Source: a virus (taxonomy: Duplodnaviria > Caudoviricetes). Taken from it: a stretch of DNA of 64,000 bases. This document shows, one piece after another, positions 36,197 to 59,458 of the stretch (the first letter of the stretch is position 1; every line of letters starts with the position of its first letter). Under the pieces are notes generated by a model. That model searched no databases. It saw only the letters and a program-made list of their open reading frames with translations, and was not told the DNA's origin. Made by a program: the position numbers and the translations under genes. The stretch is taken from IMG/VR virus record IMGVR_UViG_3300021431_004509, positions 32,001-96,000 of that record; one strand, written 5' to 3'.

Positions 36197-36288
36197 CCCG
36201 AAGTGGCGGAACGGTTAGACGCAGGGCACTTTCAGCCCGGCCAGAGTGCGCGCCTGGCGTCCTGGTTCGAATCCAGGCTTCGGGGCCA
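36197..36288 (+). tRNA. Atypical class II (Ser/Leu-like) tRNA with shortened anticodon arm
   Basis: CCCGAAG/CTTCGGG acceptor, G73-CCA, GGTTCGAATCC T arm, long variable arm; anticodon arm GGGC-ACTTTCA-GCCC. Confidence 0.7.
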
Positions 36289-39983: not shown

Positions 39984-41153
39984 ATGTACTATGTCGCGGT
40001 GAAAGCTCCGCCGAGATATCACCAGATGACTCTGGAAGAGCTTTTGTACGGAACAAGTCGTGACATGCTGGTCACGAAGAACGAAACCAACACAAGAACA
40101 TACGAGATGGAAACGGTCAGTGAGAAGTTCCTCCGCGGGTTTTATGTCGAGCCGATGATCCGTATGCTTGAGAAGTTCAACGAGTCTACGGCAGAACTCC
40201 GCAGCGTCAACCGCAGGGATCTGTATCATTCGTTCTTTATTCCGAAGAAGAACGGCGGCAAGCGGCATATCGACGCTCCGCGTCCGGAATTGATGGACGC
40301 GCTCCGCAGACTGAAAACGATGTTTGAGGTCGCGTTTTACCCGATCAATCGCGAGACTTCTGTCCAGACCACCTATTATCACACGTCGGCGTTTGCGTAT
40401 ATCGCCGGTAGATGTACCATCGACGCCGTAAAGCGACATCAGGCAAACGAAAGCCGCTGGTTTGGCAAGCTGGACTTTTCAAACTTCTTTGGCACGACCA
40501 CGCTCGACTTCGCTATGAGGATGCTGTCGATGGTTTTCCCGTTCTGCGAAATCTGCCGGACAGACCACGGTCGAGAGGAACTTCGCAAGGCGGTTGAGCT
40601 TGGTTTTCTGGATGGTGTTCTCCCGCAGGGGACGCCGCTGTCACCGCTCCTTACGAACATCATCATGCTCCCCATCGACTTCCGGCTTTCCGGCAAACTT
40701 CGTGACGTAGACGGCAACAGCTTTGTGTATACTCGCTACGCAGACGACATGCTGATTTCCTCCAGATACAATTTCAATATCCGGCAGATTGAAGATGTCG
40801 TCCTCAGCGTCCTGTCCGATTTCGACGCACCGTACCGCCTGAACAGGGAGAAGACAAGATACGGGTCTTCTGCCGGTTCTAACTGGAATCTCGGCGTGAT
40901 GCTGAACAAGGACAACAAGATCACCGTCGGGTATAAGAACAAACAGCGCTTTCAGGCAATGCTCGCAACCTATGCGGTCGACCATAACAACGGAGTCCGC
41001 TGGGACTACGGGGATCTGATGCACATGGAGGGGCTTCGCAGCTATTACCGATCCGTCGAGGGCGACACGATTGACAGGATCGTAAAGCACGTCGGCGATA
41101 AATTTCACCTGGATATCGTGTCGGCAATCAAGCAAGATCTCAGGCCCGCCTAA
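39984..41153 (+). CDS. Retron-type reverse transcriptase
   Basis: IPKKNGGKR, HTSAFAY, DAVKRH (NAxxH-like), LDFSNFF, LPQGTPLSP, YTRYADD, NLG (VTG-like); no maturase or endonuclease domain. Confidence 0.92.
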   Translation: MYYVAVKAPPRYHQMTLEELLYGTSRDMLVTKNETNTRTYEMETVSEKFLRGFYVEPMIRMLEKFNESTAELRSVNRRDLYHSFFIPKKNGGKRHIDAPRPELMDALRRLKTMFEVAFYPINRETSVQTTYYHTSAFAYIAGRCTIDAVKRHQANESRWFGKLDFSNFFGTTTLDFAMRMLSMVFPFCEICRTDHGREELRKAVELGFLDGVLPQGTPLSPLLTNIIMLPIDFRLSGKLRDVDGNSFVYTRYADDMLISSRYNFNIRQIEDVVLSVLSDFDAPYRLNREKTRYGSSAGSNWNLGVMLNKDNKITVGYKNKQRFQAMLATYAVDHNNGVRWDYGDLMHMEGLRSYYRSVEGDTIDRIVKHVGDKFHLDIVSAIKQDLRPA

Positions 41154-43792: not shown

Positions 43793-43868
43793 CTGGGTGT
43801 AGCTCAGCCGGAAGAGCGCCTGATTTGGGATCAGGAGGCCGTGAGTTCGAGTCTCGCCACTCAGACCA
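43793..43868 (+). tRNA. tRNA-Pro(TGG)
   Basis: CCTGA-TTTGGGA-TCAGG, CCA. Confidence 0.95.
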
Positions 43869-43881
43869 TCTCCGCATTTTC

Positions 43882-44234
43882 GCTGCAACGTATTACATCT
43901 CCAGCAGATGTCCTCCTCGCTTTTAGTGGGAGGTTCGCCTTGATCCAGAAAAGAAGGGCCCCGATCGACGGCCGTGGCCAATGGTACTTGCCCAGTTAAA
44001 CGCACTAGAACGAAACCGCGCGCCAACAGTAGCGCAACGCGGCAAACCAACGGGTGATCTGCCAGCCGAACCGGTTAACTAAGGGTGATCGAGGAACCAC
44101 CAGCAGACCGAAAAGCTGAAACAAGGTTTTTCAGGACAATCCGAGTCTCACCCGTAGTACAAGAAGCTGAAGTCAGTTCAACTGAGACTTGTACCTGGAT
44201 CTACTAACTAAGCATTGCAAAAGCTGGTTGCAGC
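43882..44234 (+). ncRNA. Retron-like msr-msd ncRNA unit 3
   Basis: GCTGCAAC/GTTGCAGC stem; first ~70 nt nearly identical to unit 2. Confidence 0.8.
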
Positions 44235-44262
44235 AAACCAAATTCAATTTACAGGAGGGAAT

Positions 44263-44889
44263 ATGAATCTCAAAGAAGCGTTTCGCTACCAGAACTTTCT
44301 GGACAAGATGATGTCAGAAGCGTGTGGAAGCATTACCAGCGGCGACCACTGCTTGAAGACGACTTACCGCCATCTCCGCAGCAAGGCATGCAAGGACGCG
44401 GTTGATGAGGATATCCCGCAGGAAGTCTCGGAATTCTTCTGCAACGATGAGGTGATCGGCTTCATGGGTTTCCTGATCGAACAGCGCAAGGCCCTCTCCG
44501 ATGCGATCGGAGTCGCTAAGGCTTCGATTGGATTTGACCTCGATTCTGCGCTCGAAGCAAACAAATTCCGGCAGCGGTATTGCAACGCGCTGAAGACCAT
44601 GCTCAACATAAAGGCGCGTAAAACCACCTCCAAGGGCAGCGACTACAAGTTCGATGTCAACGGTGTCCAGTCTCCGTACTACTATCCTTTGGAGGTTATC
44701 TGCGAAGAGGCATACAACAGGGAGGCTTCCAAAACGCTGATGCGTGAATGCCTCCTGGAGGCTGACGGGATCTCTGCGGCGATTGATGCTGCCCTGATCA
44801 ATACATCTGTTGCCTTCGATCCAGTCATCGACGTCAACGACAGTTTCGATGACGCAATGACATTCTTCATTGCAGAGTATTCCGCATAA
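44263..44889 (+). CDS. Helical hypothetical protein (MNLKEAFRYQN)
   Basis: AGGAGG RBS; flanked by two ncRNA candidates. Confidence 0.8.
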   Translation: MNLKEAFRYQNFLDKMMSEACGSITSGDHCLKTTYRHLRSKACKDAVDEDIPQEVSEFFCNDEVIGFMGFLIEQRKALSDAIGVAKASIGFDLDSALEANKFRQRYCNALKTMLNIKARKTTSKGSDYKFDVNGVQSPYYYPLEVICEEAYNREASKTLMRECLLEADGISAAIDAALINTSVAFDPVIDVNDSFDDAMTFFIAEYSA

Positions 44890-44905
44890 AAACAGAGAGC
44901 TTCGG

Positions 44906-45359
44906 CTCTCTGTTTTGGGCAGGGCTTTTGAAGCGATTGTTTTGTTTACCTCCAGACGGAGAGTTTCCGTCGCTGCTCAGCGATGCGCAGCTTTTCTTAT
45001 CTGGCGATGGTGCATTTGATGCTTGCCAAAGTCAGATCTGGATGATAACAGCCTGACTTGAAATCGGGGAAAAGACGAATATGGGTTTCGTTTCGTAGAT
45101 TGTGTGAATCATTCACCTTTCAGTGGTTCGCCAGGCGATAACCGCCGCATAAGACACCAAACCGATAGTTCGCCATTCCATCATCCGCGAGTACGCCAGT
45201 TGGCACATGACTCGTCAGCCGTCACGCTACGCAAGAAACGAGTGTGCTCAGCGGTTCGCCGCTTCTGTTATAAAAATTATTCTGAAAACTTCTATTGCCG
45301 CTTATGCGGTTTTTCTGTAAACAATTCATTCAAATCGGAGACCTGCCTGAAACAGAGAG
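44906..45359 (+). ncRNA. Large structured ncRNA candidate
   Basis: 18-bp closing helix and about ten internal stems; no credible ORF. Confidence 0.65.
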
Positions 45360-45385
45360 TCGAAACAGGATAAGGAGGTATTGTT

Positions 45386-45700
45386 TTGGTGGCGGTTCAT
45401 TATCCGGAATGGGCGTACGTCGGCGCCCGCGTTGTTCTGGAAAAAGATTATCCGGACAATAACAGAAGACTGGTATCGGGCGATACTGGAACAATCGTCG
45501 ATCGCAGCAGCATGAGCAGATTGCTGTATATAGAGTGGGATAAGGAATGTAGTGGACACGATTGCGGCGGAAAGGCAAAGCGTGGCCATGGCTGGAACGT
45601 GGATTGCGATGAAGTCGGTCCTGAAATCTTATTCTGCGACGAGGAAATCGAGTACGAGCCGACCAGCCTGGACGATCTGCTCTCATTCCTGTCCACATAA
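45386..45700 (+). CDS. SH3-like HDCxG-family protein
   Basis: Paralog of 55811-56176. Confidence 0.65.
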   Translation: MVAVHYPEWAYVGARVVLEKDYPDNNRRLVSGDTGTIVDRSSMSRLLYIEWDKECSGHDCGGKAKRGHGWNVDCDEVGPEILFCDEEIEYEPTSLDDLLSFLST

Positions 45701-45706
45701 GCCAAC

Positions 45707-45783
45707 GCGGGTATGGTGTTCAACGGCCAGCATGCCGGCCTTCCAAGCCGGAGGTGGGGGTTCGAATCCCCTTGCTCGCTCCA
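45707..45783 (+). tRNA. tRNA-Gly(TCC)
   Basis: CCGGC-CTTCCAA-GCCGG, TCCA. Confidence 0.93.
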
Positions 45784-45869
45784 TAGGTGCAATGCGACTT
45801 AACAGCAGAGGTGGGCGCGTTACGGTATGAATCCGATTCAGGCGTATGACAAACAAGATCCCACCGCGT

Positions 45870-45944: not shown

Positions 45945-46116
45945 CAGGCGGGTGCTTGACATTCTGCCGCGACGAGGAAACAGATGACGGGATCGGCTTC
46001 CGTACATCTGCGGAGTCCGCCGAGGGTTTGGACAGTCCCCACAGGCCGATGTAGGAGAAACCGAAAGAAAATGTCCGCTGCAACCCGGTGCATGCGACGT
46101 GCCGGGTTGTGTTTAT

Positions 46117-57238: not shown

Positions 57239-59458
57239 TTGAGAACACTTCTTCTCCTTCGCGGCGCCCCGGGATGCGGGAAATCCACCTGGATTCGGGA
57301 GCACGGCCTGGAGGACTACGCGCTTTCCGCAGACAAGATCCGCATGATGTGCGCCGGGCCTAAGCTGATGCCGGATGGAACCGTCGCCATTGATGCGACC
57401 AATGACACCGTCGTCTGGAAAACGCTGTTTCAGCTTCTGGAAATCCGGATGCAGAACGGCGAGTTCACTGTCATCGACGCCACCAATTCCAAGGCTTCCG
57501 ACATCAACAAATACAAGGATCTCTGCGATTCTTACAAGTACCGTATCTACTGCGTCGACATGACGGATCTTCCCATCGAGACCTGTAAGGAGCGCAACCG
57601 CTCCAGACCGGAACTGCAGCAGGTTCCCGACGAGGCGATCGACAAGATGTACGCCCGGTTCGAGACACAGAAGATCCCCTCCGGCGTCACGGTGATCGGA
57701 CCTGACGAGCTGGACAGGATCTGGATGAAGCGCATCGACCTCTCCGAATACAAGGCCGTCCACCACATCGGGGACATCCACGGCAGCTATACGGCGCTGA
57801 TGGAGTATTTCAAGGACGGGCTCAAGGACGACGAGTGCTACATCTTCCTCGGCGATTACCTCGACCGAGGCATCGAAAACGCAGACGTCCTGAAATTCCT
57901 GCTGGAAATCTACGAGAAGCCGAACGTGTTCCTTTTGGAGGGGAACCATGAGCGTTGGCTTTGGGTGTACGGAAACGGCGGCACCACCAAGTCCAAGGAA
58001 TTTGAGTTCTTCACCAGGCCGGAGCTGGACGATGCCGGGATCGACAAGAAAGCGGTGCGGAAATTCTATCGCCGCATCGGGCAGTGCGCCTGGTATACCT
58101 ACCACGGCAGGGAAGTTTTTGTCTGCCACGGCGGGCTTTCCGCCATGCCGTCGAACCCGACGCTTGTCTCCACGCAACAGTTGATCAAGGGCGTCGGCAA
58201 CTACAAAGACCACAACACGATCGCAAAGAGCTTTGACGAGCGTGCCGCCGAGAATCTCATCCAGATCCACGCTCACCGGAATGTCAGCAGCTGCCCCATC
58301 AAGGAGAGCGAGCACTGCTATAACCTGGAGGGACATGTGGAATTCGGCGGGTTCCTCCGCTGCCTGAAGCTCACGCCTGACGGCGTCGAGGAATTTGAGA
58401 TCAAGAATACCGTCTTCCGCAAGGAAAACATCATCAACTACCAGCCGAAGACCCAGGATGAACATACGAAAACTTCCATCGGCGATCTGATCATGCGGCT
58501 TCGCAATAACCGCTACGTCCAGGAAAAGCGCTTCGGGGATATCTCTTCCTTCAACTTCACCAAGGCTGCCTTCTACGACAAGGTCTGGGACGAGCAGACC
58601 ATGAAAGCCCGCGGGCTTTACATCGACATCCCCCATCAGAAGATCGTCGCCAGGGCGTACGACAAGTTCTTCAACATCAACGAACGTCCTGAGACCAAGC
58701 TGGACATGCTGCCGTACAAGCTGACCTTCCCGGCCAGAGCTTACCGGAAGGAGAACGGCTTCCTCGGCATCGTCTCCTACCTCCAGGCAACGGATGACTT
58801 CTTCATCACCACCAAGTCCACACCGGACGGGGATTTTGCCCAGTGGTTCCGGGCTTTGTTTGAGACGCAGATCCGCCCGATCGACAGGGAATATCTCAAG
58901 CTCTTCCTGCGGGAACACGATGTCTCCGCCGTCTTCGAGTGTGTGGATATGGTTCACGACCCACACGTGATCGAGTACCCGGACAGCCGGATCTACCTGC
59001 TTGACCTGGTGGAAAACAAGATCCCGTTCTCCAAGCTCTCCTACGACGAGGTGCAGAACCTCGCAAGTACGCTCAAGATCCGGGCAAAGAAACTGGAGTA
59101 CGGCTTTGCCGACTGGCAGGAATTCTTCGACTGGTACAACACCGTTACCATGGACAGCAACAACGACCACATCGAGGGTTATGTGGTCGAGGGCGCCAAC
59201 GGGTATATGGTCAAGGTGAAGCTCCCGTACTACAACTTCTGGAAGCACATGCGCTCCGTTGCCCACTCAGTCATCAAGTCCGGCGGGATTCGCAAGGATC
59301 ACGCGGCCTCCTTGACAACGCCTCTGGCAAATCACTTCGTTGCCTGGGCAAAGACGCTGCACGATTCCCCGGATGTCGACAGCCTCCCGAAGGATATCTG
59401 CAATCTCAGACAGATGTTCTTCCAGTCTGACGAGGGAAAACCTTTCGCAGACTCGTAA
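57239..59458 (+). CDS. Polynucleotide kinase-phosphoesterase-RNA ligase fusion (RNA repair)
   Basis: GAPGCGKS and IDATN kinase; DIHG/GDYLDRG/GNHE phosphoesterase; KFFN, KENG, EGYV, KVK ligase motifs. Confidence 0.9.
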   Translation: MRTLLLLRGAPGCGKSTWIREHGLEDYALSADKIRMMCAGPKLMPDGTVAIDATNDTVVWKTLFQLLEIRMQNGEFTVIDATNSKASDINKYKDLCDSYKYRIYCVDMTDLPIETCKERNRSRPELQQVPDEAIDKMYARFETQKIPSGVTVIGPDELDRIWMKRIDLSEYKAVHHIGDIHGSYTALMEYFKDGLKDDECYIFLGDYLDRGIENADVLKFLLEIYEKPNVFLLEGNHERWLWVYGNGGTTKSKEFEFFTRPELDDAGIDKKAVRKFYRRIGQCAWYTYHGREVFVCHGGLSAMPSNPTLVSTQQLIKGVGNYKDHNTIAKSFDERAAENLIQIHAHRNVSSCPIKESEHCYNLEGHVEFGGFLRCLKLTPDGVEEFEIKNTVFRKENIINYQPKTQDEHTKTSIGDLIMRLRNNRYVQEKRFGDISSFNFTKAAFYDKVWDEQTMKARGLYIDIPHQKIVARAYDKFFNINERPETKLDMLPYKLTFPARAYRKENGFLGIVSYLQATDDFFITTKSTPDGDFAQWFRALFETQIRPIDREYLKLFLREHDVSAVFECVDMVHDPHVIEYPDSRIYLLDLVENKIPFSKLSYDEVQNLASTLKIRAKKLEYGFADWQEFFDWYNTVTMDSNNDHIEGYVVEGANGYMVKVKLPYYNFWKHMRSVAHSVIKSGGIRKDHAASLTTPLANHFVAWAKTLHDSPDVDSLPKDICNLRQMFFQSDEGKPFADS

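What the first reader, a model, noticed from the sequence alone, without database searches (positions are those of the whole stretch)
44890..45359. ~450-nt structured RNA whose closing helix competes with a terminator
Seen: CTCTCTGTTTTGGGCAGG (44906-44923) pairs with CCTGCCTGAAACAGAGAG (45342-45359), 18 bp with two G-U. The left arm is also the 3' side of the terminator AAACAGAGAGC-TTCG-GCTCTCTGTTT. Internal stems include TTTGAA/TTCAAA, TGTTTAC/GTAAACA, GACGGA/TCCGTC, AAGTCAG/CTGACTT, CCGCATAAG/CTTATGCGG, ACTCGT/ACGAGT and AGCGG-TTCG-CCGCT. Known: large ncRNAs such as GOLLD and ROOL occur in phage tRNA clusters. Inference: a large ncRNA, possibly partnered with the 44263 protein.
Basis: partly seen in the sequence, partly recalled or inferred. 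Interest (0 to 1): 0.7.

Follow-up and report, generated by a model that had tools for sequence, protein, structure and literature searches.

The report
New large phage RNA with partner gene
A roughly 420-450-base, elaborately folded non-coding RNA that matches no catalogued family lies directly behind an unknown 208-residue protein gene in this phage, recurs with that gene in at least 120 other loci examined from gut and rumen phages and prophages, and accumulates as a discrete RNA in metatranscriptomes.

Summary
The 18-bp closing helix is the core of a 23-bp helix (44901-44923 / 45342-45364). Its 5' arm can also form the UUCG hairpin 44890-44915.

Comparative data support a conserved RNA on the + strand:
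- A 23-37-bp closing helix follows homologues of the 208-aa gene in about 60 of 65 IMG/VR loci. It also follows them in 65 of 75 bacterial genome loci, against 0 of 75 in each of two controls.
- Helix sequences differ widely, and interior non-Watson-Crick positions are G:U rather than A:C (108:14 and 96:21).
- A compact H-type pseudoknot tops the stem in two variants, both with covariation. A G-poor core with repeated short words follows.
- Searched from the RNA side, 20 of 21 pseudoknot matches have the protein gene 62-77 nt upstream. The last could not be tested.
- Metatranscriptome contigs from two studies cover 44923-45347 exactly, at about 5-fold the depth of the flanks in the one run where flanks were laid.

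No Rfam family matches the RNA. No Pfam, PHROG, NCBIfam or PADLOC family matches the protein.

Best reading: a new large ncRNA class, cut out of an operon transcript within its closing duplex, probably working with the upstream protein in an RNA-repair and tRNA neighbourhood. Its function is unknown. This scan had noted the same stretch before, only in this genome.

The parts
44263..44889 (+). Gene for the 208-aa partner protein (MNLKEAFRYQNFL...). It belongs to an unnamed family with more than 1000 relatives.
   Evidence: ORF. 1005 homologues, none named and none with a Pfam domain. AlphaFold2 model pLDDT 95.4. Best solved match is 3kdq_A, Z 11.7, function unknown. No Pfam, PHROG, NCBIfam or PADLOC family.
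44890..44915 (+). Alternative 5' hairpin (11-bp stem, UUCG loop) directly after the stop codon. Its 3' half is the outer part of the P1 5' arm.
   Evidence: I8. -17.6 kcal/mol when folded alone. An equivalent hairpin overlapping P1 occurs in 24 of 37 non-redundant loci, with sequences that covary with both P1 arms. The terminator scan did not flag it.
44901..44923 (+). P1 closing helix, 5' arm.
   Evidence: The helix is conserved in position but not in sequence across loci.
45342..45364 (+). P1 closing helix, 3' arm. RNA-library contigs end at 45346/45347, inside this arm, next to the tandem G.U.
44927..44949 (+). 5' strands of the inner extensions of the closing stem (UUUGAA, UGUUUAC). They pair with 45317-45334.
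   Evidence: MFE and centroid folds. Kept in L073 and L076.
44950..44971 (+). H-type pseudoknot, variant A. S1 is CUC 44950-52 with GAG 44961-63. S2 is GACGG 44955-59 with CCGUC 44967-71.
   Evidence: Alignment A8 and pair counts: S1 has 3 pairs and S2 has 4 pairs with changes on both sides. Covariance model R1 hits 44942-44997 at 43.9 bits, E 6e-9, the only hit in the window.
44972..44991 (+). Hairpin P3 (GCUGC/GCAGC) with the conserved loop CAGCGAUG.
   Evidence: All 7 pairs show changes on both sides across 17 sequences. Compensatory U:A to C:G change in L076.
45140..45215 (+). G-poor, C-rich central segment carrying repeated CGCCA, UUCGCCA and CAUCA words. Probably largely unpaired.
   Evidence: Composition by position across 37 elements: G 0.13-0.15 and C 0.25-0.27 at 45-60% of the length. 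Word enrichment: CGCCA in 17 of 37 elements against 3.7 expected, UUCGUCA in 7 against 0.4.
45250..45263 (+). UUCG-loop hairpin AGCGG/CCGCU in the 3' domain.
45297..45314 (+). Hairpin GCCGC-UUAU-GCGGU followed by UUUUU. It looks like a terminator, but RNA contigs read through it to 45347.
44923..45347 (.). Extent of the RNA species seen in metatranscriptome assemblies. The contigs do not give the strand.
   Evidence: Contigs with no mismatch at 44923-45347 (X2, depth 28.1), 44932-45347 (X11), 44934-45346 (X10) and 44939-45244 (X12). In X2 the flanking contigs have depth 2.8-5.8.
45386..45700 (+). Downstream 104-aa ORF. Its ribosome-binding site begins about 10 nt after P1. It is not a conserved partner.
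   Evidence: Downstream genes differ among loci.

Best explanation
Window 44901-45364 encodes a member of a previously uncatalogued class of large (340-520 nt) structured non-coding RNAs of phages and prophages of gut and rumen Clostridia. The RNA is made from the + strand. Its anatomy, from outside to inside, is as follows. A long, nearly perfect closing duplex P1 of 23-37 bp is extended by further short helices. A compact H-type pseudoknot sits at the top of that stem, followed in variant A by a hairpin with a CAGCGAUG loop. Then comes a G-poor central segment with repeated CGCCA and UUCGYCA-like words, and then several 3' hairpins. The RNA gene always lies 5-25 nt behind the stop codon of a conserved gene for a 205-215-aa protein of unknown function. 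Two exceptions, L011 and L013, carry a small inserted ORF between the two. Inferred mechanism: the gene and the RNA are transcribed together in an operon. P1 is cut by a double-strand-specific nuclease of the RNase III type at about 44920 and 45347. This releases a stable RNA of about 425 nt. It also lets the upstream mRNA end refold into the small hairpin that competes with P1. The RNA then acts in trans, most likely as a complex with the co-encoded protein. The frequent neighbours (tRNA genes, PNK-phosphatase-ligase, Rnl1, RtcB) suggest a role in the RNA-damage and repair conflicts between phage and host. Shown here: conservation, covariation, strand, gene linkage, and accumulation as a discrete species. 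Inferred: co-transcription, RNase III cleavage, protein binding and the biological role.
For: 1. Closing helix. It is present right after the gene in about 60 of 65 IMG/VR loci and in 65 of 75 genome loci. It is absent from 75 upstream controls and 75 shuffles. Arm sequences are unrelated between clades.
2. Strand. Interior non-Watson-Crick positions of P1 are G:T 108 against A:C 14 (counted with a symmetric score) and 96 against 21 in the independent genome set. The core has C at about twice the level of G. All covariance-model hits are on the gene's strand.
3. Internal structure, variant A. The pseudoknot plus P3 is 87.6% paired against 34-45% when partners are slid. The covariation score is 0.64 against 0.12-0.18. 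14 of 16 pairs show changes on both sides.
4. Internal structure, variant B. The pseudoknot is 99.2% paired in 67 distinct sequences, with covariation at 4 pairs including a lone U:A to C:G pair.
5. Specificity. Model R1 hits once per locus in 37 loci at the same offset, with no second genuine hit. The only other matches over 650 kb searched on both strands are two weak minus-strand ones (E 0.35 and 0.008).
6. Linkage from the RNA side. 20 of 21 exact matches to the variant-B motif in IMG/VR have the protein gene ending 62-77 nt upstream. The last one lacks upstream sequence.
7. Purifying selection. In L073 the RNA is 98.7% identical, against 93.3% for the gene and 94.2% for the downstream ORF.
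8. Expression. Contigs from four RNA libraries (two samples, two studies) match 44923-45347 with no mismatch. Depth is 28 against 2.8-5.8 for the flanks in X2. The 3' ends coincide at 45346/45347.
9. Not coding. ORF-poor gaps of the same length occur across GC 30-60%, and L076 carries indels.
10. Context. RNA ligase, PNK, RtcB, HAD_SAK_2 and tRNA genes are frequent neighbours.
Against: The contigs carry no strand. They come from libraries that can contain DNA, and their ends are only a weak hint of true RNA ends (tool caveats). No direct evidence shows that the protein binds the RNA. The protein is acidic overall and matches no known RNA-binding fold. RNase III cleavage is inferred only from the duplex length and the contig ends. 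The central and 3' regions could not be aligned across clades, so most of the internal secondary structure of the window's copy is a single-sequence prediction. RNA-repair neighbours appear in a minority of loci: six of 30 upstream neighbours matched an RNA-repair family (Rnl1, AAA_33/Metallophos-type PNK, RtcB or HAD_SAK_2), and four of 26 downstream neighbours matched Metallophos. A large unnamed catalogue of IMG/VR structure candidates (PMC10690425) could already contain fragments of this RNA, and I could not check that.
Confidence: 0.82

Rival explanations
1. The element is a long structured 3' UTR or intergenic processing cassette that acts only in cis. It would stabilise or punctuate the operon mRNA and control expression of the upstream protein through the hairpin/P1 switch. 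The stable fragment would be a by-product with no trans function.
For: The fixed position directly after the stop codon. The conserved competition between the small hairpin and P1. The next gene's ribosome-binding site lies 10-30 nt after P1.
Against: A 340-520 nt RNA with a near-invariant pseudoknot core and stronger conservation than both flanking genes is far more than a processing signal needs. The fragment accumulates about 5-fold above the mRNA. Downstream genes are not conserved.
Confidence: 0.1
2. It is a DNA-level element. Options are a miniature transposable element with terminal inverted repeats, an invertible segment (inverton), or a replication or packaging site. On this reading the inverted repeat is read as DNA.
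For: Long, near-perfect inverted repeats flank about 400 bp, and the 10-nt word AAACAGAGAG recurs at both ends (D8). The fold z-score is similar on both strands.
Against: The element is single-copy in the 117-kb genome. It always sits at the same place and in the same orientation relative to one gene. The strong excess of G:T over A:C in the repeat is not expected for DNA pairing. Internal pseudoknot covariation includes G-U pairs. The matching contigs come from RNA libraries. No recombinase is consistently adjacent.
Confidence: 0.03
3. It is the template or primer RNA of the phage reverse transcriptase at 39984-41153, in the manner of a retron msr-msd or a DGR RNA.
For: A reverse transcriptase gene lies about 3 kb upstream. 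RT genes occur in 3 of 5 related phage records tested. The closing inverted repeat resembles the retron a1/a2 arrangement. Other first-stage notes propose retron-like units in this window.
Against: In the other records the RT lies 10-16 kb away, not adjacent. No RT family appears among the immediate neighbours in 30 plus 26 loci. There is no second copy (variable repeat) of any part of the element in the genome. At 25-35 bp, P1 is far longer than retron a1/a2 helices, and the element is 2-3 times the size of retron ncRNAs (the retron sizes are from my own knowledge). The conserved partner is the 208-aa protein, not an RT.
Confidence: 0.03
4. It is a degraded or unrecognised protein-coding region, for example the 89-aa ORF 45104-45373.
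For: An 89-aa ORF lies inside the region.
Against: No family matches it. Homologous regions across GC 30-60% lack ORFs of 70 aa or more. L076 differs by 9 gap openings. Substitutions follow base-pairing, not codon positions.
Confidence: 0.02

Closest known systems
ROOL (RF03087) and GOLLD (RF01998), large ornate RNAs of phages and prophages
   Same: They are large, intricately folded ncRNAs of unknown function, encoded by phages and prophages and often near tRNA islands (10.1101/2024.12.08.627333). The present RNA sits inside a tRNA cluster beside a drum RNA. It also comes largely from gut and rumen phages.
   Different: Neither Rfam model matches, even at E up to 10. The RNA is smaller (340-520 nt) and is dominated by a 25-35-bp closing duplex. 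It is tied obligately to one protein gene, whereas no protein partner is known for ROOL or GOLLD.
Bacterial Y RNA with Ro60/Rsr in RtcB RNA-repair operons
   Same: In both, a structured ncRNA with paired 5' and 3' ends is encoded next to its protein partner, among RNA ligase and RNA-repair genes. Such pairs also occur in phages (PMC4201824 and PMC7790460, listed; details from my own knowledge).
   Different: The protein here is not a TROVE/Ro protein (no Pfam hit). The RNA is 3-4 times longer. No tRNA-like module was detected. No Y RNA family matches.
OLE RNA with the OapA/B/C proteins
   Same: It is a large, highly conserved bacterial ncRNA that works as a ribonucleoprotein with dedicated proteins encoded nearby (PMC12054373, listed).
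   Different: There is no sequence or structure match (Rfam). The hosts differ (phages against extremophilic Bacillota chromosomes). The protein family differs.
Stable RNAs rnaC and rnaD (species 1 and 2) of the phage T4 tRNA cluster, and RNase III processing stems of rRNA and T7 early mRNA
   Same: These are stable non-tRNA RNAs co-transcribed and processed within a phage tRNA cluster, and long duplexes flanking a mature RNA that are cut by RNase III (my own knowledge, not tested here). The mode of production is the part compared.
   Different: The T4 species are only 120-140 nt and have no linked protein. Cleavage of P1 by RNase III is inferred here, not shown.
Protein structure 3KDQ (Corynebacterium diphtheriae, function unknown; probably the DIP1984 family, NF038048)
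   Same: It is the best fold match of the partner protein: Z 11.7, 145 of 152 residues aligned, rmsd 3.6. One homologue has a faint NCBIfam hit to DIP1984_fam (E 0.43).
   Different: Sequence identity is 13%. There is no sequence-level relation by profile search. 3KDQ has no known function, so the match explains nothing yet.

Membership tests
ROOL / GOLLD (Rfam RF03087 / RF01998) | A match to the family covariance model, which scores sequence and secondary structure together. | tested here: not met
   cmscan found nothing at gathering thresholds on the whole window. It found nothing at E up to 10 on 43800-45800 or at E up to 1 on six homologous loci.
ROOL / GOLLD (Rfam RF03087 / RF01998) | Phage or prophage location, often near tRNA islands. 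| tested here: met
   The element lies inside a + strand tRNA cluster of a 117-kb phage record. This is shared context only.
Any Rfam 15 family (4227 models) | A score at or above the family's gathering threshold. | tested here: not met
   The only matches in 44880-45364 are two microRNA models at E above 1.
Retron msr-msd ncRNA | Location immediately upstream of, and functional linkage to, a retron reverse transcriptase. | tested here: not met
   The RT is 3 kb away here and 10-16 kb away in relatives. No RT appears among the immediate neighbours. The conserved neighbour is the 208-aa protein.
Retron msr-msd ncRNA | Production of multicopy single-stranded DNA primed from a conserved G. | not testable with these tools
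   This needs nucleic-acid extraction from an expressing host.
Miniature transposable element / inverton | Multiple copies or variable position and orientation, with repeats that pair as DNA (no G:T over A:C bias). | tested here: not met
   Single copy, fixed position and orientation, and G:T 108 against A:C 14 and 96 against 21.
   The hairpin is conserved in 24 of 37 loci. The window's U run is part of the stem plus 1-2 further U. The consensus scan did not flag it. Many homologues lack a U-tract after it (sequences).
Bacterial Y RNA / Ro RNP | A Ro60 (TROVE) partner protein and a Y RNA stem with a tRNA-like domain. | tested here: not met
   The partner has no TROVE or other Pfam domain. ARAGORN and Rfam found no tRNA-like element in the RNA.
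Type III toxin-antitoxin RNA (ToxI-like) | Tandem direct repeats of about 30-40 nt preceding an endoribonuclease toxin gene. | tested here: not met
   There are no tandem repeat families, only short scattered words. The RNA follows rather than precedes its linked gene. PADLOC gave no hit.

The most novel reading that the evidence does not exclude
The RNA and the 208-aa protein form a dedicated phage ribonucleoprotein. This would be a new class of large ornate RNA that, unlike ROOL and GOLLD, has its own obligate protein subunit. It would act in the RNA warfare between phage and host, for example as a decoy, sponge or scaffold for host ribonucleases or for the phage's tRNA-repair enzymes. The pseudoknot would be the protein-recognition core, and the G-poor repeated words would be multivalent binding sites.
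Probability: 0.35. Interest if true: 0.88.

Novelty: new variant of a known kind. Interest (0 to 1): 0.78.

Why it matters
Large, highly structured bacterial and phage RNAs without a known function (OLE, GOLLD, ROOL, raiA) are rare, and each has opened new biology. This one appears uncatalogued. It is widespread: more than 1000 partner-protein homologues, 215 matching contigs in a collection holding one genome per species, and about 75 IMG/VR contigs, mostly from gut and rumen Clostridia. It already has expression evidence. Unlike ROOL and GOLLD, it comes with a built-in lead to its function, namely an obligately linked protein that models with high confidence. It also comes with tractable hosts, including prophages in Intestinibacter bartlettii N19 and in a complete Oscillospiraceae genome. 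Its recurring place among tRNA genes and RNA ligase/PNK genes makes a role in phage-host RNA damage and repair directly testable.

Tried and rejected
- blastn of 44200-45750 against 50,697 GenBank phage records gave no match.
- Rfam gave nothing at gathering or E-value thresholds.
- Pfam, PHROGs, NCBIfam and PADLOC gave no family for the protein. A profile search of PDB sequences gave nothing. Foldseek against PDB gave no hit at E of 0.001 or better. BFVD gave only uncharacterised phage proteins. The protein atlas gave only unnamed clusters.
- RNA.duplexfold for helix finding over-extended the helices and was replaced by a diagonal scan.
- Global MAFFT alignment and RNAalifold of full-length elements (A2, A10, A11) aligned only P1, P2 and the pseudoknot. 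The central and 3' regions stayed unaligned, so no full consensus structure is claimed.
- A 'GGCAG / CUGYC box' in the inner part of P1 looked conserved by eye but occurs in only 33 of 109 distinct helices, so I dropped it as a defining feature.
- No RNA contig covers 44627-44922 or 45348-45396 in X2. This cannot be read as termination or cleavage (tool caveat).
- The sigma-70 scan found no + strand promoter in 43800-45800. This is uninformative for a phage of Clostridia.
- Literature searches found no description of this RNA or protein.
- I considered complex prediction and did not run it, because the tool does not model RNA and no protein-protein claim is made.

Full report
**1. What is in the sequence**

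The window is part of a 117-kb IMG/VR phage record. It carries portal, terminase, exonuclease, reverse transcriptase and PNK-phosphatase-RNA ligase genes. It also has a + strand tRNA cluster and a drum RNA.

The finding lies between a 208-aa ORF (44263-44889) and a 104-aa ORF (45386-45700). 44906-44923 pairs with 45342-45359 over 18 bp with a tandem U.G/G.U, and the pairing extends to 23 bp (44901-44923 / 45342-45364). Two further short helices continue it inward (44927-32 / 45329-34 and 44943-49 / 45317-23). The hairpin 44890-44915 (UUCG loop) uses the outer 10 nt of the same 5' arm. The region folds better than shuffles on both strands (z = -4.0 and -4.3), so the strand had to be decided from other evidence. 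The element is single-copy in its genome.

**2. Comparative evidence**

The 208-aa protein has more than 1000 unnamed relatives. I fetched 65 IMG/VR loci, a few Logan and ENA contigs and 80 of the 215 matching bacterial genome contigs. The genome contigs are mostly Clostridia MAGs from gut and rumen. They also include Intestinibacter bartlettii N19 and a complete Oscillospiraceae chromosome.

In nearly all loci the gene is followed by an ORF-poor gap of 400-500 nt, across GC contents of 30-60% and protein identities down to 26%. A diagonal helix scan found a 23-37-bp helix that begins 5-25 nt after the stop codon and spans 340-520 nt. It found this in about 60 of 65 viral loci and in 65 of 75 genome loci with enough downstream sequence. 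The same scan found it in 0 of 75 upstream control regions and 0 of 75 shuffles (maximum control score 34, observed median 59). Arm sequences are unrelated between clades, so the pairing is conserved rather than the sequence.

I recounted the interior of each helix with a score that treats G:T and A:C alike. The non-Watson-Crick positions were G:T 108 against A:C 14 in 48 distinct helices, and 96 against 21 in 62 further helices. The sequences are related, so these are not independent events. The direction is still unambiguous: the helix is selected as RNA of the gene's strand.

**3. Internal structure**

At the top of the closing stem sits a compact H-type pseudoknot.

Variant A is the window's type. 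On a 17-sequence alignment, the pseudoknot plus the following hairpin with a CAGCGAUG loop is 87.6% paired, against 34-45% when the 3' partners are slid. The covariation score is 0.64 against 0.12-0.18. Of 16 pairs, 14 show changes on both sides.

A covariance model of this domain hits exactly once per locus, always on the + strand at the same offset. This holds in 28 viral or Logan loci and 9 genome loci. The only other matches are two weak minus-strand ones, E 0.35 in L052 and E 0.008 in L129. There is no second hit in the 64-kb window.

Variant B has a near-invariant core, GGUUCAGRUGCAGAUGAACURUAAYGCUGCA. It occurs in about 57 of the 80 genome loci and in the more distant viral loci. In 67 distinct sequences it is 99.2% paired, and four pairs covary, including an isolated U:A to C:G pair.

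In the close relative L076 (85% identical RNA), the pseudoknot stem, P3 and the next hairpin each carry a compensatory change.

The central 45-60% of the RNA is G-poor (0.13-0.15) and C-rich (0.25-0.27). It is enriched in the words CGCCA, CAUCA, UUCGUCA and CGCUUCG. This suggests an exposed segment with repeated binding sites. The central and 3' regions could not be aligned across clades, so their helices remain single-sequence predictions.

**4. Linkage to the protein**

I searched IMG/VR with the variant-B RNA motif alone and found 21 places. In 20 of them the protein gene ends 62-77 nt upstream. The remaining locus has only 61 nt of upstream sequence. In L073 the RNA is 98.7% identical to the window's copy, against 93.3% for the protein gene and 94.2% for the downstream ORF. 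The RNA is therefore under the stronger constraint in that comparison.

Downstream genes vary: Metallophos, GP88, integrase, tRNA and others. This argues against a leader function for the next gene. Upstream and nearby genes repeatedly include RNA-repair enzymes: Rnl1, PF09414 ligase, PNK/Metallophos fusions, RtcB and HAD_SAK_2. This is a recurrent context, not a universal one.

**5. The small hairpin**

In 24 of 37 non-redundant loci a stable small-loop hairpin lies right after the stop codon, and its 3' half is the first 6-14 nt of the P1 5' arm. Its sequence changes together with both P1 arms. Many of these hairpins lack a following U-tract, and the window's copy was not flagged by the terminator scan. 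I read it as the structure the upstream mRNA end adopts once P1 is cut or not yet formed, rather than as a proven terminator.

**6. Expression**

Four metatranscriptome runs from two studies hold contigs that match the element with no mismatch and end there. They cover 44923-45347 (depth 28.1), 44932-45347, 44934-45346 and 44939-45244. In run X2 the gene and flanks are at depth 2.8-5.8.

The caveats are the tool's own. Contigs carry no strand, DNA can be present in RNA libraries, and contig ends are only a weak hint. Even so, the coincident 3' ends in two studies and the roughly 5-fold excess in X2 fit a discrete stable RNA of about 425 nt whose ends lie inside P1. A 3' end at 45347 with the usual 2-nt overhang would place the 5' end at 44920, three bases outside the longest contig. 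That geometry suits RNase III, but this step is inference.

**7. The protein**

AlphaFold2 gives a confident model (pLDDT 95.4) built of long helical hairpins and a long beta-hairpin. The only clear structural relative is 3KDQ, a C. diphtheriae protein of unknown function (Z 11.7). No curated family matches it.

**8. Rivals**

- A purely cis-acting UTR or processing cassette remains possible but explains the data poorly.
- DNA-level elements (miniature transposon, inverton) are excluded by single copy, fixed orientation, the G:U bias and the RNA-library contigs.
- A retron or DGR RNA is unlikely. The reverse transcriptase is not adjacent here or in relatives, and no second repeat copy exists.
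- Coding is excluded by the absence of a conserved frame.

**9. Comparison with known families, and novelty**

No Rfam 15 family matches, and I found no paper describing this RNA. By context it resembles ROOL and GOLLD, which are phage RNAs near tRNA islands. By organisation it resembles Ro-Y RNA and OLE ribonucleoproteins. It is not a member of any of these families.

It may lie unnamed among the 8495 IMG/VR structure candidates of PMC10690425, which I could not check. I rate it a new class within the known kind 'large structured phage ncRNAs', distinguished by its obligate protein gene.

Confidence that it is a real, expressed, conserved ncRNA class is about 0.9. Confidence that it works as a complex with the protein is about 0.5. 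Confidence in RNase III-type excision is about 0.5. Confidence in a role in RNA-repair conflicts is about 0.3.

Noticed in passing
window 45970-46079 (+): A drum RNA (Rfam RF02958, 57.3 bits against a gathering score of 43) lies between tRNA-Gly(CCC) and tRNA-Gln, about 600 nt downstream of the new RNA. The same tRNA island therefore carries two non-tRNA structured RNAs.
   Followed up: no
window 39984-41153 (+); related records G001, G002, G005: A reverse transcriptase gene (phrog_2825 / phrog_1423) lies about 3 kb upstream. RVT_1 genes are also present 10-16 kb from the gene-RNA module in 3 of 5 related phage records. Other first-stage notes propose four retron-like ncRNA units around it. 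One of them, 43882-44234, lies directly upstream of the 208-aa gene. Only the last 65-70 nt before the gene is conserved in L073 and L076, so that unit is not part of the conserved module.
   Followed up: partly
window 57239-59458 (+): A 739-aa fusion of polynucleotide kinase, phosphatase and RNA ligase (phrog_8238, E 7e-221). In several other phages a similar 737-794-aa protein lies immediately upstream of the 208-aa gene.
   Followed up: partly
L110:2575-2645 (+): A sub-threshold Gut-1 RNA match (RF01706, 42.8 bits against a gathering score of 50, E 1e-5) lies 20 nt after the 3' end of the new RNA in a Clostridia MAG. A weaker match lies on the opposite strand at 2678-2752.
   Followed up: no
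L011:3137-3448 and L013:3119-3451: In two loci an extra ORF of about 93-98 aa is inserted between the partner gene and the RNA, so the RNA starts 312-333 nt after the stop codon. These are the only clear exceptions to the tight spacing.
   Followed up: no
window 36197-36288 (+): ARAGORN calls a 92-nt tRNA-Lys(UUU) here, which is unusually long. Rfam's tRNA model did not report it at its gathering threshold. It could carry an insertion or be a false call.
   Followed up: no
variant-B loci, e.g. L056:3400-3420 and A11 columns 370-387: A near-invariant word, ACAUCUCCAU, lies in the central region of variant-B RNAs. Its complement contains GGAGA, which resembles a Shine-Dalgarno sequence. Its meaning is unknown.
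   Followed up: no
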